DNA of 32,000 nt from Synechococcus elongatus PCC 6301 (GTDB taxonomy: Bacteria > Cyanobacteriota > Cyanobacteriia > Synechococcales > Synechococcaceae), in contig NC_006576.1 of assembly GCF_000010065.1 (NCBI RefSeq), positions 210,001-242,000 of the forward strand. Direction: 5' to 3'. Positions 7,504 to 22,691 of this stretch are shown one piece after another; within the stretch, counting starts at the first letter, position 1; each line of letters starts with the position of its first letter. The translations under genes and the position numbers were made by a program. Under the pieces are notes generated by a model. That model did no database searches. It saw nothing but the letters and a program-made list of their open reading frames with translations, and had not been told where the DNA came from.

Positions 7504-7522
7504 AGAGGGTCTTAGAGGGTCT
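7504..7522. repeat. Tandem direct repeat AGAGGGTCT-t-AGAGGGTCT
   Basis: Read directly from the sequence at 7504-7512 and 7514-7522, next to the stop of the 44-aa ORF. Confidence 0.9.
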
Positions 7523-7523
7523 G

Positions 7524-7658: not shown

Positions 7659-7696
7659 TGGCTTAAATCCTGAGGATGGGGATTGGCGATCGATCG

Positions 7697-8113
7697 CTAG
7701 TATTTGCGGGGATTAAAAATCTGCGCGATTCTCTCACCGATCGCCGTCAGAGGATTGGGAATCTTCAGCTTCGGCTCTTCGTAGGCCTTGATCGGCTCGT
7801 CTTTGAATTCCTTCAACCGATAGCCAAATTCCAACACCTCTTGCTTGCGCAGCGGCGGGAAAAGACGACCTGCTGCCTCTTGGAGTTGCGCTTGGTTATC
7901 ACGAATGGCGTAGTTGACTAGGTCAACCCGTTTGACGGCAATCACACCGACAGGAAACCATTGCTCTTTGCCAGGAATTCGCACATAGATCTCGAAGTCC
8001 GGAGTTCCCTCACGGGTCATGCGATCGTAGGTTTGCGCCGCTTCGGCTCGCTTGCGGGCTGCCTTAGAAGGCTGCTTTTTTTGGGGTTGTTCCGGCGCAA
8101 ATCCTTTGGCCAC
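7697..8113 (-). CDS. Conserved hypothetical protein, possibly related to plant HHL1 (unverified)
   Basis: This is the ORF 7697..8131, whose track start is a TTG. The GTG at 8111-8113 gives (M)AKGFAPEQPQKKQ.... The core PDFEIYVRIPGKEQWFPVGVIAV...NYAIRDNQAQL...RLFPPL resembles a cyanobacteria/plastid-conserved family. That assignment is from memory only. Confidence 0.5.
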   Translation of the reverse strand: MAKGFAPEQPQKKQPSKAARKRAEAAQTYDRMTREGTPDFEIYVRIPGKEQWFPVGVIAVKRVDLVNYAIRDNQAQLQEAAGRLFPPLRKQEVLEFGYRLKEFKDEPIKAYEEPKLKIPNPLTAIGERIAQIFNPRKY

Positions 8114-8159
8114 GCATCGATCCTGTCGCAACTGGCACTGATCCTATCGCGTTGCTTCC

Positions 8160-8360
8160 CTAGCCTGGAAGCAGACAGGCCTCAACATGGCAAATGTGAC
8201 TGAGGGTGACGGGAAAGACAGGGTTGCTTTTTGGACGGAGGGGCCACTGACGCACCCAACAAATGCCGCCTTCCTCCTGCACACTGATGACTTGGTAGAG
8301 ATGTGCCGCTGAATCTTGCAGTCGGACACAATCACCTTGATGGACGGGTTTGTTCTTCAT
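8160..8360 (-). CDS. Small hypothetical protein (66 aa from the ATG at 8360)
   Basis: The track ORF 8160..8447 begins at a TTG. The first ATG gives MKNKPVHQGDCVRLQD...ICWVRQWPL.... I recognise no family. Confidence 0.35.
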   Translation of the reverse strand: MKNKPVHQGDCVRLQDSAAHLYQVISVQEEGGICWVRQWPLRPKSNPVFPVTLSHICHVEACLLPG

Positions 8361-8642
8361 AGGGGACCGTGCGTGATCCTGCCACTGTTTTAGGTTAGAA
8401 AGCTGGTCTTGGTTGGCATACAGGATACGAAATCTCAGGATTTTCAAGGACTCCTGACAGAACTCACATCGCCAAGTTCCGCACCCACCGTACCGCAGCT
8501 GTCGAGTCTGGCGTCAGATTGTGCCAAGGCTGCTGAGCCAATCTCGAGAGCGATCGCGTTAGCAGGCAATCCTGGATTGGAGGGTCATACCTCTACCGCA
8601 AGACCTAGCGATCGCTGAAGTCCTGGCTAGGGGCGATCGCAG

Positions 8643-9128
8643 TTAACGACAGATGGTTTGCAGACCGTTTTCCACCACTTCGGGATAGTTCTCCAGCCAG
8701 CGGGCTTCCAGCTCGAGCAGTTGATCTTCGGGGGCATATTGACTACGGACAATACGCAGATCCGATCGCCGAGTTTCTCGCAGCATTTTGGGAACTAAGT
8801 CTGGCCGAAGGCGAGCAATCGGACGACTGCGGCGTGTCCCAACTCGACCTTGATTTGCAAGGCAATTCTGAACAACGTGCCAGCTTTCATGTACCAAGGT
8901 GCGAAACACCTCGTCATCACTGTCGTGGGCTTCGGGGCAGATGCGAATTTCACGACGGCGATCGCTAAAACTGCCCAACAATCCAGGTTCACAGGCCTGA
9001 GTGACCCGTACGCCGACTCGACGCAGTTCAGCCAAGAGACTTCGGGCGTTATTGAACTGACCCCAAGCGGGTGCCTCTAACAGCATCACAAGAAGGATAG
9101 GAAGGGGAAGCCAGCGCGACGACACCAT
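8643..9128 (-). CDS. Hypothetical secreted protein with an HExxH motif
   Basis: It starts at an ATG with a signal peptide MVSSRWLPLPILLVMLLEAPAWG. It has a single HESWH motif and four Cys residues. No family is recognised. Confidence 0.55.
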   Translation of the reverse strand: MVSSRWLPLPILLVMLLEAPAWGQFNNARSLLAELRRVGVRVTQACEPGLLGSFSDRRREIRICPEAHDSDDEVFRTLVHESWHVVQNCLANQGRVGTRRSRPIARLRPDLVPKMLRETRRSDLRIVRSQYAPEDQLLELEARWLENYPEVVENGLQTICR

Positions 9129-9211
9129 GAGAGCCCTGCCCGGGGTAATCAGAAAATTGCAATCAGCCCTACCACAGCAAGACGTGATCGCTTCCCACTA
9201 GGTTTCCCGAA

Positions 9212-9715
9212 TCACACACAACCCAGACTATCTCGGGTGGCTACCCCTGTTTTGGGGTTAACGCCGTCGGCCCGCAGGCAAAGCTGCTTCTGCTCGTAGC
9301 GATCGATGATTGCATCTGTGAAATCGGCACCTGTGATCTTGACATCTTGAAAACTGGTGCGAGTAGCAGTCACGTCTACCAACAGGGCATCGGTCAAATC
9401 AGCGCCCACCAAAAAGACGCGATCGAGTAAGGCACCGCTCAGATCTGCTCCATGGAAATTGGCATCCAAGAAGACTCCTAGAGTCAGAATCGCATTGCGC
9501 AAATTCGCCTCTTCTAGATTGGCTTTGCGCATCTCGGTCGACACGAACAACATCCCCGACAAGTCTTCGTGGGAGAGATCGATGCCGTTGCGAATCAAGT
9601 TGCTGTAGTTATTCGTTTCGGGCTCTGCGATCGCAGGGTGAGCTAACCCCAAAACTAAAACCAGCGCCAGCACCATCGAGAGCCATCGCCAACCGAATCG
9701 ACGGGGCAAAACCAT
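9212..9715 (-). CDS. Pentapeptide-repeat protein with a signal peptide (thylakoid-lumen or periplasmic type)
   Basis: The N-terminal signal is RWLSMVLALVLVLGLAHPAIA. Tandem A(D/N)LxX repeats follow (ANLEEANLRNAIL...ANFHGADLSGALLDRVFLVGADLTDALL). Confidence 0.85.
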   Translation of the reverse strand: MVLPRRFGWRWLSMVLALVLVLGLAHPAIAEPETNNYSNLIRNGIDLSHEDLSGMLFVSTEMRKANLEEANLRNAILTLGVFLDANFHGADLSGALLDRVFLVGADLTDALLVDVTATRTSFQDVKITGADFTDAIIDRYEQKQLCLRADGVNPKTGVATRDSLGCV

Positions 9716-9747
9716 AGAACCATTCTCGGAAGGAGATCCCCTTCAGC

Positions 9748-11058
9748 TTAAGGCTTGGGGCTGGGGGTCGGTTGCCAGTCTTGGCCAATCCGAATTGTCA
9801 GGTCGGAGCCAATATCGCCATCAGAGCTTGCACGGACCTCACCCAAATTCAGCTGCTGTTGCAACCCTTCCGCTTGGATTAAGTCCCCCCGCTGGGCAAT
9901 AATTTGTGTCTTCTCGAGGGGCTCTGGCCAGTCTTCAATGATGTAGACGCGACGAATTCCCAACTTAGCTAAGGATTCAGCAAGGGCTTGGGCTGCTTCG
10001 GGTTTCCCCGATGAGTCTTGAATGGCAACGCGCAGGTCTTCAAAAGCCAAGCGATCGATTGGCTGGATACTGATCTGGTTGAAAAAGTCACTGACTAGGC
10101 GATCGCGAGCGCCTTCATCCAAGCGCCAGTAGCTGACGTCGTCCTGCATAATCGGGCGACCGGGCAGCATCACCATGCGGATATTGGCCAAATCCTGTTG
10201 CAGCCCAATACTGACCAGAGCCATCAGTTCTTCAAAGCTGAGGTTGGTATCGACGTACTTTTGCAGGACTTTGACCAAGTCGGGTGCCTTCGTCAGAATC
10301 AGCGGATTGGCCAGCTTTTCCCGTAGGGCCCGTAGCAACATTTGCTGGCGCTGCACCCGCCCAATATCCCCCAGCTCGTCGTAACGGAAGCGGGCGAACT
10401 GTTCTGCCTGATCGCCATTCAGGGTTTGGCGCCCCGCTGGGAGATCGATGTAGAGCTTTTGGGTGTTGTCGGTATAGCGCATCGGCTTGGGCACATACAC
10501 CTCAACCCCACCGACCAAATCGACCAGCTCCTTAAAAGCAGTGGTGTCAATCCGCAGGTAGCGATCGATCGGTACGTCATTGAGGGTGCGACTAACCACA
10601 TCCGCCGCCAGAGCCGGCCCCCCAAAGACGTTAGCCGCATTAATTTTGGTGGTGCCGTAGCCAGGGATTGCGACTTGGGTGTCGCGGGGAATCGAGAGGA
10701 GGCTGGTTGTCCCTTCCAGGGGGTCAAACCGCAATAACAGCAGGGTATCGCTGCGAGTGTCAAACTTCTCTGCTTGTTCACCGGTTTCCGACTGATCCAA
10801 GCCCATGACCAGAACATTGATCGGCCGATTGAAGCTGTAGGGCAGCAGGGCCATCAAGGGCGAGTTGGGCGCAACCGGCTTGGCAGAACGGCTGAGGGGG
10901 AGGGCATAAACAAGACCTGCCGTAGCGATCGCGGCAGCGCTGGCGATCGCAGCCATCAACCCGACTTGGGGCCAAAGCCGTCGGGGTTTTGATGCTGGCG
11001 ACGAGATCCGCTTCACCTTTGTTTGAGTCGCTGGTCGAGAGATGGGTGAAGCCCCCAC
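9748..11058 (-). CDS. LytR-CpsA-Psr (LCP) family cell-envelope protein with a C-terminal LytR_C-like domain
   Basis: It has an N-terminal basic tail plus a TM helix. The LCP core reads NVLVMGLDQ...RSDTLLLLRFDP...SLLSIPRDT...KINAANVFGG...RFRY. The start codon is a GTG (11056-11058), and an alternative internal ATG exists. Confidence 0.85.
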   Translation of the reverse strand: MGASPISRPATQTKVKRISSPASKPRRLWPQVGLMAAIASAAAIATAGLVYALPLSRSAKPVAPNSPLMALLPYSFNRPINVLVMGLDQSETGEQAEKFDTRSDTLLLLRFDPLEGTTSLLSIPRDTQVAIPGYGTTKINAANVFGGPALAADVVSRTLNDVPIDRYLRIDTTAFKELVDLVGGVEVYVPKPMRYTDNTQKLYIDLPAGRQTLNGDQAEQFARFRYDELGDIGRVQRQQMLLRALREKLANPLILTKAPDLVKVLQKYVDTNLSFEELMALVSIGLQQDLANIRMVMLPGRPIMQDDVSYWRLDEGARDRLVSDFFNQISIQPIDRLAFEDLRVAIQDSSGKPEAAQALAESLAKLGIRRVYIIEDWPEPLEKTQIIAQRGDLIQAEGLQQQLNLGEVRASSDGDIGSDLTIRIGQDWQPTPSPKP

Positions 11059-11087
11059 AGGTTTACCTCAGGCAAAATTGCGCAGAA

Positions 11088-11116
11088 TTGACGGATTATA
11101 GGCGACTCTTTACGCT
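11088..11116 (+). promoter_or_regulatory. Candidate sigma70-type promoter (TTGACG-17 nt-TACGCT) upstream of the BciB/HCAR-like gene
   Basis: TTGACG lies at 11088-11093 and TACGCT at 11111-11116, with a 17-nt spacer. This is a pattern match only. Confidence 0.25.
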
Positions 11117-11300
11117 CGGCAAGGTCTGCTGGCGTGCAGTTGTAGCAGCGGCTGCGATCGCATACAGCATTTATACCTAATTTCTGTCCTTCTCTGGGGT
11201 CAGAAGACGCTCTTCTATCTGCCCCATTGGCAAGCGGTGATTCCGCGAGTTTTCCGGCTCCGGTAAGGTGGAAACATTGGCTTTGTCCCCTTGGTTTGGC

Positions 11301-12506
11301 ATGACTGCAGCACTTCCCCACCGTCGCGCCCGCGCCCTCAAACCCGGAAGCCGTCGGCCCGCCAAAGATCTCTGCAGTGAGTGTGGTCTCTGCGATACCT
11401 CCTATGTCCATTACGTCAAAGAGGCCTGTGCCTTTTTAAATCAGCAGTTTGAGCCGCTGGAACAGCAGGTTCATGGGCGATCGCGGGATCTGGAGAATCC
11501 TGATGAACTCTACTTCGGAGTTCATCAGTCGATGACGGCTGCCCAAAAGCGAGAACCCATCGAAGGCGCTCAGTGGACTGGGATTGTTAGTGCGCTGGCC
11601 TGCCGGATGCTAGAGCAGGGCTGGGTCGAAGGCGTAGTCTGTGTCCAAAATAGCCCTAGCGATCGCTTCCAACCCATGCCTGTGATCGCGCGCACAACCG
11701 ATGAAATTTTGGCCGCGCGAGTCAACAAACCGACCCTGTCGCCCAACCTCAATATCCTTGATCTGATTGAGCAATCAGGACTGAAACGACTGCTGGTGAT
11801 TGGCGTCGGTTGCCAAATTCAAGCTCTGCGCGCCGTTCAAGACAAACTGGGGCTCGACAAGCTTTACGTCTTGGGCACCCCCTGCGTCGATAATGTCAGT
11901 CGCGCCGGTCTGCAAAAGTTCTTGGAAACCACCAGCCGATCTCCCGAGACAGTGGTGCACTACGAGTTCATGCAGGATTTCCGCATCCACTTCAAGCATG
12001 AAGACGGCAGCATCGAAATGGTGCCCTTCTTTGGCCTCAAGACTAAGGAGCTTAAAGATGTGTTCGCACCTTCCTGTCTGAGCTGTTTTGACTACACCAA
12101 TGGCCTTGCTGACCTCGTTGTCGGCTACATGGGCGCGCCCTTTGGCTGGCAGTGGTTAGTGGTGCGCAATGAAATCGGCCAAGAAATGTTTGATCTCATC
12201 CAAGACGACCTACGGCTACAACCTGTCCAGAGCAGTGGCGATCGCCGGGCTGCGGTACAAAACAGCATTCCGGCCTACGAACAAGGTGTGCAGCTGCCGA
12301 TGTGGGCGGCCAAATTGATGGGCCTCGTGATCGAGCGGATCGGTCCCAAGGGCCTTGAATATGCTCGCTTTTCGATTGACAGCCACTTCACCCGCAACGC
12401 GCTCTACGTGCGGCGCAACTATCCCGAGAAAGCTGAGACGCACATTCCGGAGTTTGCCAAGCGGATCGTCAGTCAATATCAACTCCCACCGATCGAGGAG
12501 AAATAA
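11301..12506 (+). CDS. F420 hydrogenase/dehydrogenase beta-subunit family protein; likely ferredoxin-dependent 8-vinyl reductase (BciB) or 7-hydroxymethyl chlorophyll a reductase homologue
   Basis: The N-terminal Cys cluster reads CSECGLCDTSYVHYVKEACAFLNQ. The rest is a FrhB-like body (LLVIGVGCQIQALR, LYVLGTPCVDN, CLSCFDYTN). I prefer the ATG at 11301 to the GTG at 11268. Confidence 0.75.
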   Translation: MTAALPHRRARALKPGSRRPAKDLCSECGLCDTSYVHYVKEACAFLNQQFEPLEQQVHGRSRDLENPDELYFGVHQSMTAAQKREPIEGAQWTGIVSALACRMLEQGWVEGVVCVQNSPSDRFQPMPVIARTTDEILAARVNKPTLSPNLNILDLIEQSGLKRLLVIGVGCQIQALRAVQDKLGLDKLYVLGTPCVDNVSRAGLQKFLETTSRSPETVVHYEFMQDFRIHFKHEDGSIEMVPFFGLKTKELKDVFAPSCLSCFDYTNGLADLVVGYMGAPFGWQWLVVRNEIGQEMFDLIQDDLRLQPVQSSGDRRAAVQNSIPAYEQGVQLPMWAAKLMGLVIERIGPKGLEYARFSIDSHFTRNALYVRRNYPEKAETHIPEFAKRIVSQYQLPPIEEK

Positions 12507-12597
12507 TTCTGCTGTAGAGCCACCGATCTCTTAGGCAAACCCTTGGTTCGGCTTTCCCCCTTGCTGCACCTGATAGGATGCCAATATCCCTTTATTT

Positions 12598-12630
12598 AGC
12601 GCTTGCTGGCGCTTGACCCGCCGCTTTTTT
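12598..12630 (+). terminator. Weak candidate intrinsic terminator after the BciB/HCAR-like gene
   Basis: Short GC stems (AGCGC..GCGCT and GGCG..CGCC) are followed by TTTTTT at 12625-12630. The stems are only 4-5 bp. Confidence 0.3.
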
Positions 12631-12921
12631 ATGGAACCTGGCAGTAGTAGCCGCGCCAACGCCCCCGCCCCGCCTGCGCAACGGTGGTCTGAACGGGTCG
12701 GTATCGCAATTGCGTTGGCAACCTTAGTCATCCCTTTTTGGGTTATTAGTTTTTACTCAACCTCGCGGACCAGTTCGTCACCTCCTGCTTCGCTGCAGCT
12801 GCGAAGTGACTGATCCGGCGATCGCCCGACTCTTCCGTCTACGATTTTGCTTTCCTCCTTTCGGGGGTGGCAATCGCAAGGTATGGCAGGCTAGGGGAAC
12901 AAGTTGTCGGAGCCACCTGCG

Positions 12922-13713
12922 ATGAATACAGCCTCTGATCCCTGGTGGGTTCAACAGTGGCTGGATTTGATCAATGCCTATCGCTTCAAGAAACGCTTGG
13001 AGCGAGGTTGGCGCTATGCCCGCGAAGGTCATGTCCTCAGCATTTGCTTCCAAGGGCAAAAAGTGGAGGCGAAGGTTCAAGGGACTGAAGCGAAGCCCTA
13101 TCGAGCCTCGCTTTGGCTGGATCCAATCAGTGAGGAGGACTGGGGCTACGTCATTTCAGCCTTGGCGACTGAGGCCCGTTGGTCAGCACTGTTGTTAGCA
13201 GGCGAAATGCCCGCCGACATCGAGACGGTGTTCGCCCGTAATGGTTTGCGCCTTTTCCCGTTTAGCCTCAGTGATGTCCACTCGCGCTGTAGCTGTCCAG
13301 ATAAAGCCAACCCTTGCAAGCATGTCAGCGCTATCTACTACCTGCTTGGCGATCGCTTTAGTGAAGATCCCTTCGTGCTTTTTCAGCTCCGGGGACGGCA
13401 ACGACAGCAGCTACTAGAGGAATTGCGATCGCGTCGCCAAGCTAGCCTTCAACCAACGCCAGAAGTCTCTGCTGCACCAGTTCCTCAGCTGCAGCAATTT
13501 TGGGATTACGCCGATCCCCTTGACCCAGAGCTGGTGATTATCACGCCCAGTCTCGGCGACACAGTGCTTGGACAATTGGGTTCTTTGCCCCTTGCGAGCG
13601 ATCCTCGTTTAGAGACCAGCGCTGCGCAGCTACTAGTGCAATTGCGGCAGCTCTATGAGGATGTTGCTCAGTCAGTTTTCTTGGAATCTATGGCATCAGC
13701 AGGCGATCGCTGA
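12922..13713 (+). CDS. SWIM zinc-finger family protein
   Basis: It carries the CSCPDKANPCKHVSAIYY motif (CxCx(n)CxH SWIM signature) and an N-terminal WWVQQWLDLI...RGWRYAREGHV region typical of COG4279-like proteins. I prefer the ATG at 12922 to the TTG at 12904. Confidence 0.8.
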   Translation: MNTASDPWWVQQWLDLINAYRFKKRLERGWRYAREGHVLSICFQGQKVEAKVQGTEAKPYRASLWLDPISEEDWGYVISALATEARWSALLLAGEMPADIETVFARNGLRLFPFSLSDVHSRCSCPDKANPCKHVSAIYYLLGDRFSEDPFVLFQLRGRQRQQLLEELRSRRQASLQPTPEVSAAPVPQLQQFWDYADPLDPELVIITPSLGDTVLGQLGSLPLASDPRLETSAAQLLVQLRQLYEDVAQSVFLESMASAGDR

Positions 13714-13736
13714 GCCATTTTTCAGGATCAGCAGTA

Positions 13737-13746
13737 TAGTCATTGC
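13737..13746. repeat. Left copy of the 10-bp direct repeat TAGTCATTGC, at the left composition boundary
   Basis: Exact 10-mer read directly from the sequence, 24 nt after the SWIM gene stop. The second copy is at 24462-24471. Confidence 0.9.
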
Positions 13747-13989
13747 AGCTAATCCGCTATTCAACGGCTTTCCTCTTTCCCTGTCTTAAGCAAAGGCTTC
13801 TAAAGCTCACAATAAATAGACAGCAGCTAACTGCGTAACAAGCAAAAATGAGTGCGGTTAGACATGCGGACTTTACACAAAGTATTCCAAACTACCTAAC
13901 AGCAGCTCTTTGGTGTCAATTTTTGTTGATGGGGTGGAATTGGCTAGCGATCGCTCCAACCCTAGCAGTTAAACTCCCCCTAAGCACCT

Positions 13990-14009
13990 TCTAGCTCAGC
14001 AGAGCTAGA
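13990..14009 (+). promoter_or_regulatory. Perfect 8-bp stem with a 4-nt loop (TCTAGCTC-agca-GAGCTAGA), 20 nt upstream of the sensor gene ATG
   Basis: The inverted repeat was read directly from the sequence. Its function is unknown; it could be a 5' leader structure or an operator. Confidence 0.4.
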
Positions 14010-14029
14010 TATGTGAACTGTTAGCGAGA

Positions 14030-15940
14030 ATGTCAAGAATCATGAGCATACGTTTTTTAATTATCGAGGCGTATCTGCATGTATTGGCCTTTGCGTTAAT
14101 CATCACAGGCCTCATTGGGTTAGTCGGCTACCCTGATGTCCAACACTTAACCTTTCATAGTTTAGTTCTGCCATTAGATAGTTCACTCTTATTACTATTA
14201 CTTGGTGGGCTGCTACTTAGCGCAGTTTATCGCGCAGGAAAGCTGCTAAAAGCCTTGATGTTCTTGTTGATAATCACCGTAGTGTACGGCACCACAAGGA
14301 ATTGGTTGGTTGGAGAGCCAGAAACAAATTTCTCGTTTATCAGTGAATTTATTCGGGTTAGAACTGCTTTTGTTATCACGTCCTTGATAAGTAGTCTTGC
14401 TTTTTCTTGGAGTCTAGAATCACGTCTAACTAAGCGACGAGCTTACTTTACTGGTGTTGGTATTATTTTGCTTTCAAGCACATCATTGCTGTCTGACTTA
14501 TTTTGGGCTCCAGAAGCTACTAGCTTGAGATATGATTTTTCGTCAATTTATGTTGTCAATTTCTTGAGTATTTTACTGAGCATTAGTGTTATTTTATTGG
14601 CGCCTAGATCACATCAGAGTCTCAGCAGCCCCGGAAGAATTCCTGTTTTAGCAGGCTTATTGGGAGTGATGTTAACCTGCATCACTTGGTATTTGCTCAG
14701 CTTGCAAACTATTAGCTTTATCAATCAGCAAAGTGACATTTTACTGGCTAAAGTCCAGAGCAGCACCGAGCGGGCATTATCCAATCGACTAGCACTCATT
14801 CAACGAATGAGCGAGCGCTGGGAAGCGCTAGGAAGCTTACCCACTCAAGCCTATTGGCAGCAAGAAGCCAAGAGTTACCTTCGTGACTTCCCGAATCTAC
14901 AGTGGGTGGGAGTATTCGATTCTGAGATACAGCCCTACTGGCTGGTGGGACGTACAGATAAGGCTGCAGAGTGGTTGCCTCGGTTCAGAGCTGAACAGAA
15001 TCAACAAGTTTGGTTCCAGCAAACCTTAGCCTCTAGGTCTACCTCACTCAGCCCGGTATTCACTCTTCCTGACAACCCAAGTACCTATGTCTTGCTTGCT
15101 AGCCCGCTGAACTTACCGAATCACCCCCCCCGCTTAATTGCTGCCGGCCTCAGTCTTCAGGGCATTATGCGTGACCTTATTGGGACAGATTATGACCAGT
15201 TTGTTCTGGCTCTATTTCAAGGCGATCAACCAATCTACCGCTCAGCTCTCCTATCTAATCAAGACTTGAAGAGTAGGCCTATTAACGATCGCAATATTAT
15301 TTTGAGCAATGGGAAAAGTTGGAAATTAGTGGCCTATGTCAGTAACCCAGCCGCATTTTCAACGGCACGTTTACTATCTGTCTTGGTGATGGCATTTGGC
15401 TTGTTGCTGAGCTTTTTTCTCATGCTTAGTCAACGATTAGCAAGAATTGCTACAGAACGTGCAAAATATCTACAACAAGCGAATAAAAACTTGCAAGCCA
15501 GTCTGGAAAGCCAAGCCTTTGCTCAAGCCCTCAACCAGCGCATCATGGAATTCACTATGGATGTGCTTTGTTCCTTTGATCGCGAGGGGCGCTTTCTCGA
15601 AGTTAGTCCATCGTGTCTTAAGTTATTTGGCTATAGTCCAGAAGAACTGAATGGCCGCCCCTATTTAGAACTAGTCTTGCCTGAAGATCGGGATTTAACA
15701 ATTCAGGAAGCCCAGCAGTTGATGACCGGTCGGCCAACCTATAACTTTCGCAATCGCTATCGTCATAAAGATGGTCATGTTATACACATTCTTTGGTCTG
15801 CTGACTGGTCTGAAACTGATCAAGTGTTATTTGCAGTTGCTCATGATATTACGCCACTTGTTCAGAACGAAGCCTTTGCTAATCGTCAACGCGATATTTT
15901 GAGCTTGATTTCCCTTGATCGCCCCCTGACAGAAATATAG
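14030..15940 (+). CDS. Multi-pass membrane sensor protein: about 7 TM helices, an extracytoplasmic domain, a TM helix, a coiled coil, a PAS domain and the first helix of a GAF domain (636 aa). It ends at an in-frame TAG.
   Basis: Hydrophobic segments occur through residues ~7-224 and ~449-468. The PAS domain reads MDVLCSFDREGRFLEVSPSCLKLFGYSPEELNGRPYLELVLPEDR...HKDGHVIHILWSA...AVAHDIT. The tail RQRDILSLISLDRPLTEI looks like the start of a GAF domain. This is the most AT-rich gene in the window. Confidence 0.75.
   Translation: MSRIMSIRFLIIEAYLHVLAFALIITGLIGLVGYPDVQHLTFHSLVLPLDSSLLLLLLGGLLLSAVYRAGKLLKALMFLLIITVVYGTTRNWLVGEPETNFSFISEFIRVRTAFVITSLISSLAFSWSLESRLTKRRAYFTGVGIILLSSTSLLSDLFWAPEATSLRYDFSSIYVVNFLSILLSISVILLAPRSHQSLSSPGRIPVLAGLLGVMLTCITWYLLSLQTISFINQQSDILLAKVQSSTERALSNRLALIQRMSERWEALGSLPTQAYWQQEAKSYLRDFPNLQWVGVFDSEIQPYWLVGRTDKAAEWLPRFRAEQNQQVWFQQTLASRSTSLSPVFTLPDNPSTYVLLASPLNLPNHPPRLIAAGLSLQGIMRDLIGTDYDQFVLALFQGDQPIYRSALLSNQDLKSRPINDRNIILSNGKSWKLVAYVSNPAAFSTARLLSVLVMAFGLLLSFFLMLSQRLARIATERAKYLQQANKNLQASLESQAFAQALNQRIMEFTMDVLCSFDREGRFLEVSPSCLKLFGYSPEELNGRPYLELVLPEDRDLTIQEAQQLMTGRPTYNFRNRYRHKDGHVIHILWSADWSETDQVLFAVAHDITPLVQNEAFANRQRDILSLISLDRPLTEI
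15938..15940 (+). other. The only stop codon (TAG) separating two same-frame ORFs of the sensor kinase
   Basis: The ORF starts 14030 and 15956 are both 2 mod 3. The reading is ...ACA GAA ATA TAG ACG GCC ATT TGC GCA ATG GTA.... Confidence 0.95.
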
Positions 15941-15955
15941 ACGGCCATTTGCGCA

Positions 15956-18900
15956 ATGGTAGAGGAGTTCAATCCGAGCACTTACTGCTCAATTTTGCGC
16001 CTCGATCGGGAGACTCAACAGATTTGGACAGTCGTAGCTCCCAGCCTGCCCAAAGAGTATTGCCAAGCGATTGATGGCGCCACAGTGGGGCCAAACACGG
16101 GAAGTTGCGGGGCAGCTATTTTCCGGCGGCAACCTGTTCTCGTTGCGGACATCGAATCGGATCCGCTTTGGGCAAACGACCGCGATACTGCTCTCATCCA
16201 TGGCTTGCGGTCTTGCTGGTCGTTTCCCTTGATTGCTCATAATGGGCAAGTTCAAGGGACATTAGCAGTCTATCAACCATTTCCACAGACACCCTCGGAA
16301 GATCAACTGCAGCAGTGTCTCACCGTGGCACAGTTAGCAGCGATCGCGTTCGCCCGATCACTCGACCGCCAACAACTTCAAGATAGTGAGCAGCGTTTTC
16401 GATCCCTGTTTACCTTCAACCCTGATGCCGTCTACTCATTTGACTTGCAGGGTATCTACCAGAGCATGAATTCTGCTGGCTTCGAAATTTTGGATCGACA
16501 AGCTGATCAAATCATCGGTAAGCATTTTTCAGATGTTGTTATCTCAGAAGACCTTGAAAAATGTCAACAGCATTTTGACCAAGCTTGCAAAGGAGAGGCG
16601 CAGCACTATGAAATAAGGATTAACGGCAGAAACGGTCAACTCTTTTACTTAGATGTTAGTAAATTTCCGATTGTTGTAAACAACAAGATTGTTGGAGTTT
16701 TTGGTATTGCCAAAGATATTACTCAGAGAAAGCAAATTACTGCTGATTTACAACAGGCTTTGATGCAGAGTAATAAGCAGACAGAGCAGCTTCGTCGTTT
16801 AGGAAATGCTGCGATCGCTACTGCAGAGCTCCAAGACCATCAAGAATTGGTCAAATATCTTGTGGAACAAGTTCGGCTTACCATTAGGGCTCACCAAGCC
16901 GTTATTAGTTTAACTCGATGTGATGACTGGAGTCAGTCAATCAATGCTATCTCTCTCTCTGATAAATATGCTGCTTGGAAGAACTATGATGAACTATCCA
17001 CTGGCGAAGGTATTTACACCCTCATTTGCGAAACGAATCAGCCCTTGGTTCTAACTCAAGAAGAGCTTGAAAAACACCCTCGCTGGCGAGGATTTGGCGA
17101 CCAAGCAGATAAGCATCCTCCCATGCGAGGCTGGTTGGCTGTACCTCTGTTCGATCCCAATGGCCGCAATCTCGGTGTCCTTCAGCTCTCTGATAAAGAG
17201 GAAGGCGAATTTGATGATGATGATCTAGCGATCGCCCAGCAATTTGCACAGATGACAGTGGCGGTTTTGGAAAATAACCGGCTCCTCAATGAGGTGCTCA
17301 CTGCTGAACAACAACTGAAGGAGCAGTTGAGCTTCAACTCTACAATCACGGACTGTATGGCTGAGGGACTGTTGGCCGTTGATGAACGTGGCAAATTAGC
17401 TTTTGCCAATCCAACGGCGCAGGAGTGGCTGGCAATCGACAAGTCAGAACTTTCGCAACAATCCCTCGACCAACTCCTACCACTAGATCTGACTGCTTGG
17501 AATCAAGGAGGAGTTGGCAATCAAGGGGAGTTGAAGCTTAAAGGACGGATTTTGCAGTACGAAGCCCGTCCCTTAGTAGGCCCCGTAGCAGAGAGAGGTT
17601 GGGTTTTAGTCCTCCACGACGTTACAGCCCAGCGTCAAGTTGACCAAGCCATGCGGGAGCGAGACCAGTTTTTTAGCCTTTCCCTCGAGATGTTCTGCAT
17701 GGTCGATTTACGAGGGCGTTTCATTCAGGTCAATCCAGCCTTTGCTGCAACCCTTCGCTACAGTACCGCTGAGCTCGTTGGTCGCCCCTATCTCGAGTTG
17801 GTCGATTTGGGCGATCGCAGTCAGATCGCGACTACAATTCGCCGGTTGAAAGCCGGGCTTCTCATCCACGATCTAGTCATCCGCGTCTGGGACAAAGCAG
17901 GTGAGTTACACTGGCTACAAATCAGTGCAGCCCTCGGGGACGATCGCGTCATCTATTGCGTAGCCCGCGACGTTACAGAGCAACGAGCTATTCAAGAGCA
18001 AATCCTTCAGCAAAACCTACTGCTAAGAATGGCTGGGCAGACTGCCAAGCTGGGCGGCTGGAGCGTTGAGCTACCCAGTCGAGAAGTGATTTGGTCGCCA
18101 GAAACCTTTAGTTTGCTGGGTTTTACTGATGAAGATGAACCCGATTTGGAGGAAGCCCTTAGCCTCTATCCCCCTGCGGAGCGAGCCCTAGTCACAAAGG
18201 CGCTAGAGGACTGTATTCAGCAGGGAATTAGCTTTGATTTTGATGTAGCTGTTCACAATACTTCTGGCTTCCTGCTCGATGCACGAGTGACGGGGCAAGC
18301 CGTTCGTGATGAAACTGGAGCGATTGTAAGAATCTCGGGGGCATTTCAGGATGTTAGCGATCGCAAACGGGCCCAACGTGAGGCTCAGCGACTGGCGGAT
18401 CGGCTACGAACCACGCTTGAAAGCATTACTGATGGCTTTTATACCCTCGATGAAAACTGGCGATTTAGCTACCTCAATCAGGAGGGTGCTCAGCAGCTGG
18501 GCGTCAATGTAGAAGAAACGCTAGGCCAAATGGTCTGGACTGCTTTTCCTGGGTCCTACGAGAGCGAACTCGGCCATATTTATCGGCAAGCGATTGCTAC
18601 GGGCGAAGCCGCTCATTTTGAGACCTACTATGAACCCTTCGGCCGGTGGTTTGAAGTCCATGCTTACCCTTCTGAAGACGGTTTGGCAGTCTACTTCCGC
18701 GATGTTTCAGAACGTCGGCAAACCGAACAAAATTTACGGATTACGCTGCGAGAGCTAGAGCGCAGCAACCAGGAGCTGCAGGAATTTGCCTTTGTTGCCT
18801 CCCACGACCTTCAGGAGCCACTGCGCAAAATTCAGGCTTTCTCGGATCGCCTCATTGCTCGGACCAGCAACCTAGATGATGAATCTCAGGATTATCTGAG

Positions 18901-19453
18901 GCGTATGGCCTCTGCAGCAGGACGAATGCAGACCTTGATCATCGATTTGTTGAACTACTCCCGTGTCAACACTCGGGGTCTGCCCTTACAGCCCTTATCC
19001 CTCGACCAAGTACTCGACGATGTCTTGGTCGATATGGAAGCTAGTCTCGATCAGGCCTCTGCGATCGTGGAGCGGCAGCCCTTGCCAACTATCCAGGGTG
19101 ACGCCGGTCAGTTTCGCCAGGTTTTCCAGAATCTGTTGAGTAATGCCCTGAAATTTCAGTCAGCAGACAACCAACCATTAATTCAGATTTACAGTGAGCT
19201 GACAGAGGCTGGGCAATTGAGGTTGTGCATCGCTGATAATGGCATTGGATTCGATGAGAAGTATCTAGACCGAATTTTCAACCCCTTCCAGCGCTTACAT
19301 AGTCGCGATGCCTATGCTGGTACAGGGATTGGACTAGCGATCGTCAAAAAAATCATTGAGCGCCACGGCGCGACGATTACTGCAAAGAGTATCCCCGGAC
19401 AAGGTAGTGTATTTTTCATTACTTTTCCTGTAACTGAAAAAGATTTCCGATGA
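15956..19453 (+). CDS. Multi-sensor histidine kinase: (partial) GAF, PAS, GAF, four PAS domains, HisKA, HATPase_c (1165 aa)
   Basis: GAF1 reads APSLPKEYCQAIDGATVGPNTGSCGAA...DIESDPLW...GLRSCWSFPL. GAF2 reads RGWLAVPLFDPNGRNLGVLQLSDKEEGEFDDDD. Several PAS cores end in D(V/I)T/S..R motifs. The H-box is FAFVASHDLQEPLRK with the His codon at 18803-18805. The ATPase N, G1 and G2 boxes are LLSNALKF, DNGIGF and GTGIGLAIV. Confidence 0.88.
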   Translation: MVEEFNPSTYCSILRLDRETQQIWTVVAPSLPKEYCQAIDGATVGPNTGSCGAAIFRRQPVLVADIESDPLWANDRDTALIHGLRSCWSFPLIAHNGQVQGTLAVYQPFPQTPSEDQLQQCLTVAQLAAIAFARSLDRQQLQDSEQRFRSLFTFNPDAVYSFDLQGIYQSMNSAGFEILDRQADQIIGKHFSDVVISEDLEKCQQHFDQACKGEAQHYEIRINGRNGQLFYLDVSKFPIVVNNKIVGVFGIAKDITQRKQITADLQQALMQSNKQTEQLRRLGNAAIATAELQDHQELVKYLVEQVRLTIRAHQAVISLTRCDDWSQSINAISLSDKYAAWKNYDELSTGEGIYTLICETNQPLVLTQEELEKHPRWRGFGDQADKHPPMRGWLAVPLFDPNGRNLGVLQLSDKEEGEFDDDDLAIAQQFAQMTVAVLENNRLLNEVLTAEQQLKEQLSFNSTITDCMAEGLLAVDERGKLAFANPTAQEWLAIDKSELSQQSLDQLLPLDLTAWNQGGVGNQGELKLKGRILQYEARPLVGPVAERGWVLVLHDVTAQRQVDQAMRERDQFFSLSLEMFCMVDLRGRFIQVNPAFAATLRYSTAELVGRPYLELVDLGDRSQIATTIRRLKAGLLIHDLVIRVWDKAGELHWLQISAALGDDRVIYCVARDVTEQRAIQEQILQQNLLLRMAGQTAKLGGWSVELPSREVIWSPETFSLLGFTDEDEPDLEEALSLYPPAERALVTKALEDCIQQGISFDFDVAVHNTSGFLLDARVTGQAVRDETGAIVRISGAFQDVSDRKRAQREAQRLADRLRTTLESITDGFYTLDENWRFSYLNQEGAQQLGVNVEETLGQMVWTAFPGSYESELGHIYRQAIATGEAAHFETYYEPFGRWFEVHAYPSEDGLAVYFRDVSERRQTEQNLRITLRELERSNQELQEFAFVASHDLQEPLRKIQAFSDRLIARTSNLDDESQDYLRRMASAAGRMQTLIIDLLNYSRVNTRGLPLQPLSLDQVLDDVLVDMEASLDQASAIVERQPLPTIQGDAGQFRQVFQNLLSNALKFQSADNQPLIQIYSELTEAGQLRLCIADNGIGFDEKYLDRIFNPFQRLHSRDAYAGTGIGLAIVKKIIERHGATITAKSIPGQGSVFFITFPVTEKDFR

Positions 19454-19905
19454 GGCCCAAGACCGTGCACATTCTGATTGCAGATGATGATCAAGACGAT
19501 TGCTTGATGACACGGGAGGCCTTTAAAGAGTGCAGGATCGCCAACCCCCTCCACTTTGTCCATGATGGCGAAGCCCTCTTGGATTACCTCAAACGGCGCT
19601 CTCCCTATACTGATGACCAGCGTTTTCCTTTGCCGGGGCTCATTCTTCTCGATCTCAATATGCCGCTGAAAGATGGCCGCGAGGCACTCGCTGAGATCAA
19701 ATCCGATCCAGAATTACGATCAATTCCAGTCGTTATTTTAACGACCTCATCAGCTGACGAGGATATTTTGCACAGCTACAACATTGGTGTTAATTCTTTC
19801 ATCACGAAGCCTATTAGTTTCTCGGGCTTGATAGAGGTAATCTGCGCTTTGGGTCGTTACTGGCTAGATATCGTTGAGTTGCCAAGCGAGAACCGCGGAG
19901 CATGA
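19450..19905 (+). CDS. Single-domain CheY-like response regulator (Rcp1-like receiver)
   Basis: It carries HILIADDDQDD, LILLDLNMP (phospho-acceptor Asp codon at 19651-19653), ILTTS and FITKP. Its ATG overlaps the kinase stop (ATGA at 19450-19453). Confidence 0.9.
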   Translation: MRPKTVHILIADDDQDDCLMTREAFKECRIANPLHFVHDGEALLDYLKRRSPYTDDQRFPLPGLILLDLNMPLKDGREALAEIKSDPELRSIPVVILTTSSADEDILHSYNIGVNSFITKPISFSGLIEVICALGRYWLDIVELPSENRGA

Positions 19906-22691
19906 CCTATAGCGAAGTTCACTGGCGGTTGCTCTTGGTCGATGATGATGAGGATGATTTCATCATCACCCGTGACTTACTGCGCGATGCTCAACAGGCA
20001 CAGATCCAGTTGGACTGGTGCTCCGACTTCCAAGAAGCATTGGCAACAATGGGCCGCCAAGAGCATGACGTATATTTGGTGGACTATCGACTGGGTGCTG
20101 AATCAGGATTAGACCTGATTGACCAAGCAATTCAGGCTGGGATTACCCGACCTATTATTTTGCTGACGGGGCAGGGGAATGAACAGCTTGATGCCTCTGC
20201 AATTGAACTTGGGGCTGCCGATTATCTGGTCAAAGGACAGCTAGATTGTCAGCAATTGCTGCGCAGCATTCGCTATGCCATCGATCGCAATTTAGCAACG
20301 ACTCGTCTGGCGGAAAGTGAATCCCGTTATCGGTTGCTATTTGAAGCTAATCCAGAACCGATGTGGGTTTTTGCCAAACAAGGGTTGCAGTTTTTGGCGG
20401 TTAATCAAGCAGCTTCTCAATTTTTTGGCTACAGCCAGCAAGAATTTCTTGCCATGACGGTTTTAGATATCCAGAGTGAGGAGGAAAAAACACGTTTTTT
20501 GCAGTTTTTTGAATCGTTAATCTGCAATCAAATTGTTGATCCTGCTGTGGGAGTTTGGGCTTATCGACATAAACAGGGGCATCTAGTATTTGCTGATGTT
20601 CTCATCCATGACTTTGAGTTTGACAACCAACCCTGCTGCCTTATTTTAGCAATTGATATCACCGAAAAACAAGCTGCACGGGAGTTAGCCCATCAGCGCG
20701 AACAGGCTTTTCGGAAGCTACTGAATGACAATCGGGATCCACTACTAGTGATTTCAGGCGATCGCAGGATTTGCTATGCCAATCCTGCAGCCCAAAAATT
20801 ACTAAAGTTGAATTTAGAACAATTAGAATCTCAATCTTTAGATCTACCGCTACTGAGTGACAAGCTTACTGAGTGGGCCTTGACGTTGCCTGATGGCAGC
20901 GTAGCAGAGGTAGAGATTCATCGTTCAGAAACTGATTGGGAAGGACAGCCTGCAGACCTGCTCTCACTTCGAGATATTGCTGAGCGTAAGGCATCAGAAC
21001 AGCAGCTTCGTTTGCTCAAAGAAAGTCTCGAAGCGAGCTTCAACGGTGTTGTTATTGTAGATGCAATCGAACCTGACATGCCTGTGATCTATGTCAATCC
21101 AGCCTTTGAGCGAATCACGGGTTATTCTGAAGCTGAAATGCTAGGCAGAAACTGCAGAATATTACAAGGCAATGAGCGTGACTCTCTCCAAATTGAAGAA
21201 ATTCATCGCGGTCTCAGTCAGGCTGAAAATGTTCATGTAGTCATCCGTAATTTTCGAAAAGACGGCCAACCATTCTGGAATGATCTCTATATTTCGCCTA
21301 TTTTTAATGCACAAGGTAATGTCACTCATTTCATTGGAGTACAAAACGATATTACAGAGCAAAAACGCTACGAGGAAGAACTAAGCTTCAGTGCTAGCCA
21401 CGACGTTCTCACAGGTTTACCAAATCGTGCTGTGCTCGAAGACCGCTTACGGCAGGGTTGCAAGATGGCCCTTCGCCAAAAGCATAGCCTTGCCATCCTC
21501 TTCATTGACTTAGATGGATTCAAATTAATCAATGACTCTATTGGCCATCGCTCAGGTGACTTGCTACTTGTTGAAGTCGCTCAGCGCATGTGTGAACAAG
21601 TGCGGGCGGGTGACACAGTTGCACGTATCGGAGGAGACGAATTTATCATTCTTTTAGTTGATTTAAAACTTGAAAATGATGTTATTTCAATTGCCGATCG
21701 CCTACTTGCTAGTGTTGCTCGTCCCTATCATATTCAAGGAATTTATCTGCATGTAACGGCCAGTATGGGGATCACCCTGAGTGACGGTGATATTGAACAA
21801 CCCACTCAGTTGATCCAACAAGCTGATCTGGCAATGTACAAGGCTAAGCAAGAAGGTCGCAATAATTATCAGTGGTATACCAACGACCTAAACCTACGGC
21901 TACGCGAACGAGTTCATCTACGCAATGAGCTGCAAAAGGCAATTGAGACAGAAGCCTTTGAGTTGTACTTTCAGCCCAAAATAGAGGGTTGTAGTGGGCA
22001 AGTGATCGGTCTGGAAGCCTTGTTGCGTTGGCAACATCCCCAAATGGGATTTATTTCTCCTGCCACATTTGTACCGATCGCCGAGGATACTGGGCAAATA
22101 ATTCCCCTGAGCCAATGGGTTTTGGAGACTGCTTGTCGACAGCTCCGAGACTTATTACAGCAAGGAATAGCAGCCCCATCCGTAGCAGTTAATATCTCAA
22201 CCGTTCAATTTCGACGCATTAACTTCGTTAAGAGTGTTCAATCTGCTTTGCAAAAGTATCAGCTTAAGTCAGAACATTTAGAGATAGAGATTACTGAGAA
22301 TGTTTTGTTTGACAACACCGAGAAAGCGATCGAGAAATTGCAGCGACTCAAAGAATTAGGAGTAAATATTTCGATCGATGACTTTGGAACTGGATTTTCA
22401 AGTCTGAGCTACCTTAAAGAACTACCCATTGATACTGTCAAAATCGACCGCTCATTCGTCCAAGAGATCAACACTGACTCTCGTGATGCAGCTATCACCC
22501 AAGGAATCATTTCGATGGCTCACCACCTGCGACTCAATGTTGTTGCGGAAGGGGTTGAGACTGAGCAACAGTTCAAGTTTCTCCAGCAGAGCAACTGTGA
22601 CCAATACCAGGGCTATTATTTTGCCAAACCGATGCCCTTCGAAGCATTGAAGCAATATTTAATGGATGAAGCTGCGCGCGAACTTCCATAA
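19902..22691 (+). CDS. REC-PAS-PAS-LOV-GGDEF-EAL protein (929 aa); c-di-GMP turnover enzyme gated by phosphorylation and blue light
   Basis: The receiver has LLLVDDDEDD and VYLVDYRLG (Asp codon at 20082-20084). Two PAS domains follow. The LOV motif is GRNCRILQG. The GGDEF motif RIGGDEFIIL is intact (21630-21644). The EAL motif GLEALLRW is intact (22014-22022), with a downstream DDFGTG. Its ATG overlaps the preceding stop (ATGA at 19902-19905). Confidence 0.9.
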   Translation: MTYSEVHWRLLLVDDDEDDFIITRDLLRDAQQAQIQLDWCSDFQEALATMGRQEHDVYLVDYRLGAESGLDLIDQAIQAGITRPIILLTGQGNEQLDASAIELGAADYLVKGQLDCQQLLRSIRYAIDRNLATTRLAESESRYRLLFEANPEPMWVFAKQGLQFLAVNQAASQFFGYSQQEFLAMTVLDIQSEEEKTRFLQFFESLICNQIVDPAVGVWAYRHKQGHLVFADVLIHDFEFDNQPCCLILAIDITEKQAARELAHQREQAFRKLLNDNRDPLLVISGDRRICYANPAAQKLLKLNLEQLESQSLDLPLLSDKLTEWALTLPDGSVAEVEIHRSETDWEGQPADLLSLRDIAERKASEQQLRLLKESLEASFNGVVIVDAIEPDMPVIYVNPAFERITGYSEAEMLGRNCRILQGNERDSLQIEEIHRGLSQAENVHVVIRNFRKDGQPFWNDLYISPIFNAQGNVTHFIGVQNDITEQKRYEEELSFSASHDVLTGLPNRAVLEDRLRQGCKMALRQKHSLAILFIDLDGFKLINDSIGHRSGDLLLVEVAQRMCEQVRAGDTVARIGGDEFIILLVDLKLENDVISIADRLLASVARPYHIQGIYLHVTASMGITLSDGDIEQPTQLIQQADLAMYKAKQEGRNNYQWYTNDLNLRLRERVHLRNELQKAIETEAFELYFQPKIEGCSGQVIGLEALLRWQHPQMGFISPATFVPIAEDTGQIIPLSQWVLETACRQLRDLLQQGIAAPSVAVNISTVQFRRINFVKSVQSALQKYQLKSEHLEIEITENVLFDNTEKAIEKLQRLKELGVNISIDDFGTGFSSLSYLKELPIDTVKIDRSFVQEINTDSRDAAITQGIISMAHHLRLNVVAEGVETEQQFKFLQQSNCDQYQGYYFAKPMPFEALKQYLMDEAARELP
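21027..21365 (+). other. LOV (flavin-binding, blue-light) PAS domain with the adduct-forming cysteine
   Basis: The domain reads VVIVDAIEPDMPVIYVNPAFERITGYSEAEMLGRNCRILQG...RNFRKDGQPFWNDLYISPIFN..GNVTHFIGVQNDITE. The Cys codon TGC is at 21153-21155. The canonical LOV motif is GRNCRFLQG. Confidence 0.85.
21390..21880 (+). other. GGDEF (diguanylate cyclase) domain; boundaries are approximate
   Basis: It contains HDVLTGLPNR ... FIDLDGFKLINDSIGH ... RIGGDEF ... ADLAMYKAKQEGRN. A possible RxxD I-site was not assessed. Confidence 0.85.
21918..22647 (+). other. EAL (c-di-GMP phosphodiesterase) domain; boundaries are approximate
   Basis: It contains FELYFQPK...GLEALLRW...EITE...DDFGTGFSSLSYLK...KIDRSF...AEGVET...QGYYFAKP. 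The catalytic motifs appear intact. Confidence 0.85.

What the first reader, a model, noticed from the sequence alone, without database searches (positions are those of the whole stretch)
14030..19453. A single in-frame TAG splits an ~1,807-codon membrane sensor kinase in the middle of a GAF domain
ORF 14030-15940 (636 aa: multi-TM region, extracytoplasmic domain, PAS) and ORF 15956-19453 (1165 aa: GAF/PAS array plus kinase) are in the same reading frame. Only one stop lies between them, TAG at 15938-15940. Read through, the junction is ...RQRDILSLISLDRPLTEI*TAICAMVEEFNPSTYCSILRLDRETQQIW.... That string looks like the first helix and first strand of the GAF family, which continues APSLP..Y...IDG..VGP..GSCG. 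The upstream ORF therefore ends with a piece of a GAF domain, and the downstream ORF begins without it. No purine-rich Shine-Dalgarno-like element precedes the ATG at 15956. Three readings are possible. One is a recent nonsense mutation, which could be a pseudogene or a strain-specific allele. The second is a split that uncouples membrane sensing from a now soluble kinase through termination and reinitiation 16 nt downstream. The third is low-level amber read-through that sets the ratio of two isoforms.
Basis: partly seen in the sequence, partly recalled or inferred. Interest (0 to 1): 0.7.

Follow-up and report, generated by a model that had tools for sequence, protein, structure and literature searches.

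The report
Sequencing-error stop codon in old genome
The stop codon that seems to split this large cyanobacterial sensor kinase occurs only in the error-rich 2007 genome record of Synechococcus elongatus PCC 6301, and a resequencing of the same strain reads an ordinary leucine codon and an intact gene, so it is almost certainly a sequence artefact.

Summary
ORFs 14030-15940 and 15956-19453 share one frame, are separated only by TAG 15938-15940, and a GAF domain straddles the stop. The window is the original 2007 S. elongatus PCC 6301 genome; its two products are exactly BAD78387.1 and BAD78388.1.

In the 2022 resequencing of the same strain (CP085785.1), in PCC 7942 (CP000100.1), in CP130602.1 and in the other Logan assemblies that cover the junction, the codon is TTG (Leu). 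The gene is one 1807-aa ORF in the three GenBank records and two of those assemblies; the other Logan lines carry separate frameshifts. Nineteen of 20 distant homologues also have Leu there.

The TAG is one of 15 substitutions private to this window:
- 14 of the 15 are at A:T pairs.
- The 12 coding changes are 9 non-synonymous and 3 synonymous.
- 7 cluster in the 1.9 kb before the stop.
- Several destroy conserved residues.

Their density extrapolates to about 1,260 per genome. This matches the more than 1,000 PCC 6301 "SNPs" that Adomako et al. 2022 attributed to sequencing errors. There is no evidence for read-through or reinitiation.

Side note: real lab lines carry four independent frameshift alleles of this gene, including -1 and +1 changes in a C8 tract.

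The parts
14030..19453 (+). One gene: a membrane-anchored multi-sensor histidine kinase (N-terminal multi-TM/extracytoplasmic region, PAS, GAF, PAS, GAF, several PAS, HisKA, HATPase_c). It is the orthologue of PCC 7942 ABB57387.1 (1807 aa). In this record it is annotated as two proteins, BAD78387.1 (636 aa) and BAD78388.1 (1165 aa).
   Evidence: domains; intact 1807/1803-aa gene in CP000100.1, CP130602.1 and Logan contigs; exact identity of the window products to the PCC 6301 accessions.
15938..15940 (+). The in-frame TAG. It reads TTG (Leu637) in resequenced PCC 6301 (CP085785.1), PCC 7942, CP130602.1 and the other Logan assemblies that cover it. The difference is a single T>A at 15939.
   Evidence: Homologue column is Leu in 19 of 20 and Ile in 1.
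15920..16351 (+). First GAF domain (Pfam GAF_2, profile 2-135 of 136 on the read-through). It begins about 6 codons upstream of the TAG, so neither half-ORF holds a complete domain.
14123..15651 (+). Six further substitutions private to this record within the same gene: 14123 I32V, 14133 L35P, 14237 R70G, 14288 S87G, 14443 synonymous, 15651 I541N. With 15939 they make 7 of the 11 differences found in the 22,099-bp comparison with PCC 7942, all in 1.9 kb (binomial P = 9e-6). The 3.5 kb downstream part has none.
   Evidence: L35, S87 and I541 are conserved in homologues.
19450..22691 (+). Downstream, translationally coupled partners (start codons overlap the preceding stops): a single-domain response regulator (19450-19905, 151 aa) and a REC-PAS-GGDEF-EAL c-di-GMP enzyme (19902-22691, 929 aa). 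Both are identical to PCC 7942.
15124..15131 (+). C8 homopolymer tract inside the gene (codons ~366-368). It is intact here but found as C7 (SRR19568448) and as C9 (product P0046, 2 Logan contigs) in other S. elongatus samples. Both are frameshifts.
15922..15926 (+). C5 run, 12 nt upstream of the TAG. It is shortened to C4 in SRR23869311, a PCC 7942-type background that has TTG at 15938-40. That frameshift gives CGC CCC TGA and, by coincidence, the same 1165-aa downstream ORF.
15091..15098 (+). CTTGCTTG tandem repeat. One unit is deleted (a 4-nt frameshift) in SRR13787047 and SRR13787052.

Best explanation
The TAG at 15938-15940 is an error in the deposited 2007 PCC 6301 chromosome sequence, not a feature of the organism. 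The true sequence is TTG (Leu637). The locus encodes one ordinary 1807-aa membrane multi-sensor (PAS/GAF) histidine kinase, co-transcribed with a CheY-like receiver and a REC-PAS-GGDEF-EAL protein.

Shown: the error is a single T>A. It is one of many record-private substitutions.

Inferred: their A:T-targeted spectrum and local clustering suggest misincorporations fixed in a cloned or PCR-derived sequencing template that covered about 14.1-15.95 kb.
For: (1) Source identified. The window's 636-aa and 1165-aa products are exactly BAD78387.1 and BAD78388.1 of S. elongatus PCC 6301, on a 2,696,255-bp contig.

(2) Same strain resequenced. CP085785.1 is 100% identical to PCC 7942 CP000100.1 over 20,912 bp. 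It reads TTG at the TAG position, with the gene called as 1807 aa.

(3) All 15 differences between the window and PCC 7942 over 32 kb are private to the window. Resequenced PCC 6301 and CP130602.1 lack every one of them in the spans compared (window 1-16508, and the whole window, respectively), as do the Logan contigs where they overlap. Two other window-specific protein variants (SWIM V>A, NdhG V42A) are on record nowhere else, whereas the neighbouring unmutated 929-aa protein is listed in 275 blocks of the collection.

(4) Spectrum. 14 of 15 changes are at A:T pairs (9 A:T>G:C, 5 A:T>T:A). P = 2e-4 given 47% A+T.

(5) No sign of selection. The 12 coding changes are 8 missense, 1 nonsense and 3 synonymous. 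In the kinase they replace residues conserved in homologues: L35P, S87G, I541N, L637*.

(6) Density. 15 per 32 kb extrapolates to about 1,260 per genome. This matches the '>1,000 SNPs and indels' of the published PCC 6301 sequence. Many of those are nonsense or frameshift changes in essential genes, none of the SNPs in essential genes recurred on resequencing, and the authors call the majority 'unfortunate sequencing errors' (PMC9239245).

(7) Seven changes in 1.9 kb of one gene (P = 9e-6) is far too many for decades of laboratory culture. The paper counts only about 120 differences among all the other legacy strains.
Against: The resequenced PCC 6301 came from a different laboratory stock (Golden lab, frozen 1988) than the one sequenced in 2007. 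A real mutation private to the 2007 stock is therefore not formally excluded.

I could not read the 2007 paper's methods, so the cloned-template or PCR origin of the errors is inference. The link between an A:T-biased spectrum and Taq-type misincorporation rests on my own background knowledge, not on a tool result.

The gene does suffer genuine frameshifts in other lab lines, which shows that its loss is tolerated.
Confidence: 0.86

Rival explanations
1. The TAG is a genuine nonsense mutation that arose in the particular PCC 6301 laboratory subline sequenced in 2007. In that subline the gene is a young pseudogene, or a split gene making a 636-aa membrane fragment and perhaps a 1165-aa soluble kinase.
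For: The gene is dispensable enough to carry independent frameshifts in other lab lines: C7 and C9 at the C8 tract, C5>C4, and delCTTG. The resequenced stock has a different custody history.
Against: The TAG travels with six other private substitutions in 1.9 kb and eight more nearby. That rate is far above what culture time allows, and the substitutions have an A:T-only spectrum. Relaxed selection after pseudogenisation would also affect the 3.5 kb downstream part, which has no change. No independent dataset contains the TAG or any linked variant. The published assessment of this record is that such SNPs are errors.
Confidence: 0.11
2. The stop is functional. Either termination at TAG is followed by reinitiation at ATG 15956, making a membrane sensor plus a soluble kinase, or low-level amber read-through sets the ratio of two isoforms.
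For: Only the geometry: an ATG lies 16 nt after the stop, in the same frame.
Against: The stop is absent from every other record of the species, including the same strain. The split cuts a GAF domain, leaving both parts with an incomplete fold. There is no ribosome-binding motif. TAG is an ordinary terminator for 4 of 17 genes in the window. A designed split would be conserved, and it is not.
Confidence: 0.02

Closest known systems
Sequencing errors in the original S. elongatus PCC 6301 genome (Sugita et al. 2007 record), as documented by Adomako et al., mBio 2022 (PMC9239245)
   Same: Same record. Same kind of lesion (an apparent nonsense SNP absent on resequencing). Same genome-wide density (about 1 per 2 kb here, against more than 1,000 per 2.7 Mb reported).
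   Different: That paper argues from essential genes. This gene is probably non-essential, so the argument here rests on direct comparison with CP085785.1, on the substitution spectrum and on clustering. I found no mention of this specific locus in the text or in the stored parts of the supplements.
PCC 7942 ABB57387.1 (UniProt Q31NI2_SYNE7), a multi-sensor PAS/GAF histidine kinase. Probably Synpcc7942_1357, a locus tag I inferred from recalled gene order and did not verify.
   Same: 100% identical to the window's downstream ORF. Identical to the upstream ORF except for the five private missense changes and the stop.
   Different: It is one continuous 1807-aa protein.
Pseudomonas PAS/GAF sensor kinases (P0001-P0019, e.g. 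P. benzenivorans SAMN05216603_11528)
   Same: 42-49% identity (P0001-P0017; 36-37% for P0018-P0019) over the whole 902-aa query: membrane sensor, PAS, GAF, PAS. All are contiguous across the junction, with Leu or Ile at the stop position.
   Different: They are shorter (1137-1559 aa), with fewer PAS modules.

Membership tests
Sensor histidine kinase (HisKA + HATPase_c) with PAS/GAF input modules | HisKA phospho-acceptor domain and HATPase_c catalytic domain | tested here: met
   Pfam HisKA 1.4e-9 (residues 941-1005 of the 1165-aa ORF) and HATPase_c 7.4e-26 (1048-1160).
Sensor histidine kinase (HisKA + HATPase_c) with PAS/GAF input modules | Complete GAF domain within a single polypeptide | tested here: not met
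   In the window as deposited, GAF_2 profile positions 2-15 lie upstream of the TAG and 16-135 downstream. The feature is met in CP085785.1 and CP000100.1, where the codon is TTG.
Programmed stop-codon read-through or termination-reinitiation gene pair | The stop codon is conserved at the same position in orthologues and sister strains | tested here: not met
   TTG in resequenced PCC 6301, PCC 7942, CP130602.1 and the other Logan contigs that cover it. Leu or Ile in 20 of 20 homologues.
Programmed stop-codon read-through or termination-reinitiation gene pair | A ribosome-binding or reinitiation signal, or a read-through context, at the junction | tested here: not met
   No purine-rich motif in the 30 nt before ATG 15956. 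TAG is used as a normal terminator by 4 of 17 window genes.
Genuine pseudogene (fixed nonsense mutation in a strain) | The lesion is reproducible in independent sequencing of the same strain | tested here: not met
   CP085785.1 (PCC 6301 resequenced) has TTG and an intact 1807-aa gene. The 636/632-aa product is recorded only from the 2,696,255-bp original record.
Database sequence artefact (errors of the 2007 PCC 6301 record) | The difference is private to the record, absent on resequencing, and shows no signature of selection and a non-biological spectrum | tested here: met
   15 of 15 differences are private. 14 of 15 are at A:T (P = 2e-4). Coding changes are 9 non-synonymous to 3 synonymous, and conserved residues are hit. 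Literature statement in PMC9239245.
Database sequence artefact (errors of the 2007 PCC 6301 record) | Weak or single-clone support for the base in the original reads | not testable with these tools
   The original traces are not available, and the 2007 paper is not held.

The most novel reading that the evidence does not exclude
The TAG itself is an artefact, but the gene may be a genuine recurrent target of inactivation during laboratory domestication of S. elongatus. Four independent frameshift alleles occur in its sensor-encoding 5' third in PCC 7942-type samples, including both -1 and +1 changes in a C8 tract (15124-15131). That tract could act as a slippage-prone on/off switch, like a contingency locus, for a kinase that feeds a c-di-GMP (GGDEF-EAL) output. 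This could bear on the loss of biofilm and phototaxis behaviour in lab strains.
Probability: 0.15. Interest if true: 0.45.

Novelty: not a real feature. Interest (0 to 1): 0.08.

Why it matters
Mainly as a caution. The old PCC 6301 record still supplies RefSeq and UniProt entries: WP_011242512.1 and WP_198407990.1, with the 1165-aa fragment labelled 'phytochrome'. These present a split kinase that the organism does not have. Genome scans that flag in-frame stops, read-through candidates or split sensors will keep hitting this record, and CP085785.1 should be used instead. If the TAG had been real, it would have been an ordinary young pseudogene. The only item of possible biological interest is the recurrent frameshifting of this gene in laboratory lines.

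Tried and rejected
- The protein database search returned only homologues at 49% identity or less and no S. elongatus proteins. It was useful for polarity but not for strain comparison.
- The search for related loci on genome contigs found no relative.
- The exact look-up of the 636-aa product failed. Look-ups of the UTEX 2973 and FACHB truncated annotations (P0042, P0041) also failed. So I could not determine whether those shorter annotations (starting at M214, L488 and M260) reflect lesions or start-codon choices.
- One search used mis-trimmed minus-strand coordinates for acs and is ignored.
- P0050 (571 aa) looked like another truncation, but the contig ends in an Illumina adapter (AGATCGGAAGAGCA), so it is an assembly artefact.
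- In the mBio 2022 supplements, the SNP table and the annotation table are truncated in storage and do not reach this locus. Data Set S3, part 1 of 3 read, showed no legacy-strain SNP list.
- Two papers on S. elongatus evolution and domestication do not mention this gene.
- The Sugita 2007 paper is not held.
- I found no precise citation for the Taq error spectrum, so that link is marked as background knowledge.
- I considered -1 ribosomal slippage on CGC_CCC_TGA in the SRR23869311 allele, which would restore the ancestral protein. I rejected it as programmed, because that allele is a one-off deletion in a single sample.
Full report
**Observation.**
- ORF 14030-15940 (636 aa) and ORF 15956-19453 (1165 aa) share a frame. 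The only stop in the 1807-codon span is TAG at 15938-15940.
- On the downstream ORF alone, Pfam GAF_2 aligns only from profile position 16 of 136. On a conceptual read-through it aligns from position 2, beginning about six residues upstream of the stop. So the stop cuts the first GAF domain.
- No Shine-Dalgarno-like motif precedes ATG 15956.
- The upstream part has a PAS domain and an N-terminal region without Pfam matches. The downstream part has GAF, PAS, GAF, several PAS, HisKA and HATPase_c.
- The gene is followed, with overlapping stop and start codons, by a 151-aa receiver protein and a 929-aa REC-PAS-GGDEF-EAL protein.

**Distant homologues.** A search of the large protein database with the 902 residues spanning the junction found contiguous sensor kinases of 1137-1559 aa. 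The named ones are from Pseudomonas. They share 42-49% identity (36-37% for the two most distant) and cover 99-100% of the query. In their alignment, the column under the stop is Leu in 19 of 20 and Ile in one. TTG (Leu) is one base from TAG.

**Identifying the source.** Exact-sequence look-ups showed that the neighbouring 929-aa protein is encoded in Synechococcus elongatus PCC 7942 (CP000100.1) and in many other S. elongatus assemblies. There the kinase is a single 1807-aa gene, or 1803 aa from Met5. Cluster membership identified the window's two products as BAD78387.1 ('unknown protein', 636 aa) and BAD78388.1 ('phytochrome', 1165 aa) of S. elongatus PCC 6301, on a 2,696,255-bp contig. They are exact matches. 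The window therefore comes from the original PCC 6301 chromosome record of 2007.

**The decisive comparison.** A look-up on menA returned CP085785.1 (locus L010). According to Adomako et al. 2022 this is the resequenced PCC 6301. Over 20,912 bp, L010 is 100% identical to PCC 7942. At window 15938-15940 it reads TTG, with the kinase called as an intact 1807-aa product. So the same strain, sequenced again, does not have the stop.

**The company the TAG keeps.** Against PCC 7942, the 32-kb window has 15 substitutions and no indels. None appears in any other record compared. Resequenced PCC 6301 was compared over window 1-16508, where it is identical to PCC 7942.
- *Private.* Two other window-specific protein variants (SWIM V>A, NdhG V42A) are on record nowhere else, whereas the unmutated neighbour is listed in 275 blocks of the collection.
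- *Spectrum.* 14 of 15 changes are at A:T pairs: nine A:T>G:C, five A:T>T:A and one G:C>A:T. P = 2e-4 given 47% A+T.
- *No selection.* The 12 coding changes are 8 missense, 1 nonsense and 3 synonymous, about the ratio expected with no selection.
- *Clustering.* Seven of the 11 differences in the 22,099-bp comparison with PCC 7942 fall in the 1.9 kb from 14123 to 15939. They are I32V, L35P, R70G, S87G, one synonymous change, I541N and L637*. Binomial P = 9e-6. The 3.5 kb after the stop has none.
- *Conserved residues hit.* L35, S87, I541 and L637 are conserved in the homologues, and the PCC 7942/CP085785.1 residues match the consensus.
- *Density.* 4.7e-4 per bp extrapolates to about 1,260 per genome.

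**Published context.** Adomako et al. (mBio 2022, PMC9239245) report the following:
- The published PCC 6301 sequence shows more than 1,000 apparent SNPs and indels against the other legacy strains.
- Many of these are frameshift or nonsense changes in genes essential in PCC 7942.
- The resequenced genome contains none of the SNPs in essential genes.
- All the other legacy strains together differ at only about 120 sites.

The window's private differences have the density and character of that error population.

**Explanation.** I conclude with about 0.86 confidence that the TAG is an error in the deposited sequence.

How the error arose is inference. An A:T>G:C and A:T>T:A spectrum is, to my knowledge, what non-proofreading Taq-type polymerases produce. 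A clump of seven changes in 1.8 kb suggests that one cloned PCR product or a single poor template supplied the consensus there. The membrane-spanning 5' part of the gene could have been hard to clone in E. coli, which would favour mutated inserts. I could not check the 2007 methods.

The main rival, at about 0.11, is a real mutation in the 2007 laboratory stock, which had a different history from the resequenced 1988 stock. Several facts count against it. The mutation load is implausible. The spectrum is A:T-only. The downstream part is untouched, although a dead gene should decay throughout. No independent dataset shows the allele.

Functional read-through or reinitiation (about 0.02) has nothing in its favour. 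The stop is not conserved even within the strain, it bisects a domain, and TAG terminates 4 of 17 ordinary genes in the window.

**A coincidence that needed explaining.** The 1165-aa product is also encoded in Logan contig SRR23869311_649. That contig is of PCC 7942 type and has TTG at 15938-40. It lacks one C of the C5 run at 15922-15926. This creates CGC CCC TGA and leaves the same first ATG downstream. It is an independent frameshift and gives no support to the TAG.

**Side finding.** Genuine frameshift alleles of this gene recur in PCC 7942-type assemblies:
- C8>C7 at 15124-15131 in SRR19568448.
- C8>C9, whose simulated product equals P0046 exactly; seen on two contigs.
- C5>C4 in SRR23869311.
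- Loss of one unit of CTTGCTTG at 15091-15098 in SRR13787047 and SRR13787052.

Shorter annotated products also exist for UTEX 2973 (from M214), FACHB strains (from L488) and WP_238154210.1 (from M260). I could not retrieve their DNA. All four resolved lesions are slippage events in the sensor-encoding 5' third.

This could mean that the gene is lost repeatedly under laboratory culture, or that the C8 tract is a slippage hotspot. It could also be chance, because this gene is a large 5.4-kb target sampled in hundreds of runs. I did not test it against a genome-wide background.

**Verdict.** The one-gene reading is correct, and the biological readings are not supported. The feature is an artefact of a known error-rich record, so interest is low.

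Noticed in passing
window 15124-15131 (C8 tract); L003 ~5216-5223: The C8 homopolymer inside the kinase gene occurs as C7 in SRR19568448 and as C9 in two other Logan contigs (product P0046, 377 aa, reproduced exactly by simulation). So independent samples carry both -1 and +1 frameshifts at one tract.
   Followed up: partly
window 15922-15926 (L001 ~1592-1595) and 15091-15098 (L014, L015): Two more independent frameshift alleles in PCC 7942-type samples: C5>C4 (SRR23869311) and loss of one CTTG unit (SRR13787047 and SRR13787052). Four slippage alleles in the sensor-encoding 5' third suggest recurrent loss in lab lines. I did not test this against a genome-wide background.
   Followed up: partly
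cluster of P0036: P0042, P0041, P0043: UTEX 2973 (AJD58107.1, 1594 aa from M214), FACHB-1061/-242 (1320 aa from L488/TTG) and WP_238154210.1 (1548 aa from M260) are annotated with N-terminally shortened versions of this kinase. Whether upstream lesions or start-codon choices cause this is unresolved.
   Followed up: partly
window 1000, 2842, 3518, 7498, 12534, 13106, 26748, 31686: Eight further substitutions private to this record lie outside the kinase: metH S81T, recR synonymous, three intergenic, SWIM-protein V>A, acs synonymous, ndhG V42A. They show the same A:T-biased spectrum and are probably errors of the 2007 record as well.
   Followed up: yes
window 14030-16700 versus P0001-P0019: The closest relatives returned outside S. 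elongatus for the membrane sensor + PAS + GAF part of this cyanobacterial kinase include annotated Pseudomonas proteins (most hits are unannotated metagenome sequences). The closest 17 share 42-49% identity over the full length. This hints at horizontal transfer between lineages. The search appeared not to return S. elongatus proteins at all, so other cyanobacterial relatives may also be under-sampled.
   Followed up: no
window 19450-19453 and 19902-19905: The kinase, the 151-aa receiver and the REC-PAS-GGDEF-EAL genes overlap by 4 nt at each junction (ATGA-type coupling). This implies one operon linking the kinase to c-di-GMP turnover. The third protein also scores against LOV/YtvA-type blue-light PAS models (NCBIfam YtvA_fam 1.7e-43, below that model's cut-off).
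   Followed up: no
L013 7706-7730: Logan contig SRR8237707_33 ends inside the kinase gene with an Illumina adapter sequence (AGATCGGAAGAGCA). This produces a spurious 571-aa truncated product (P0050) in the protein collection.
   Followed up: yes
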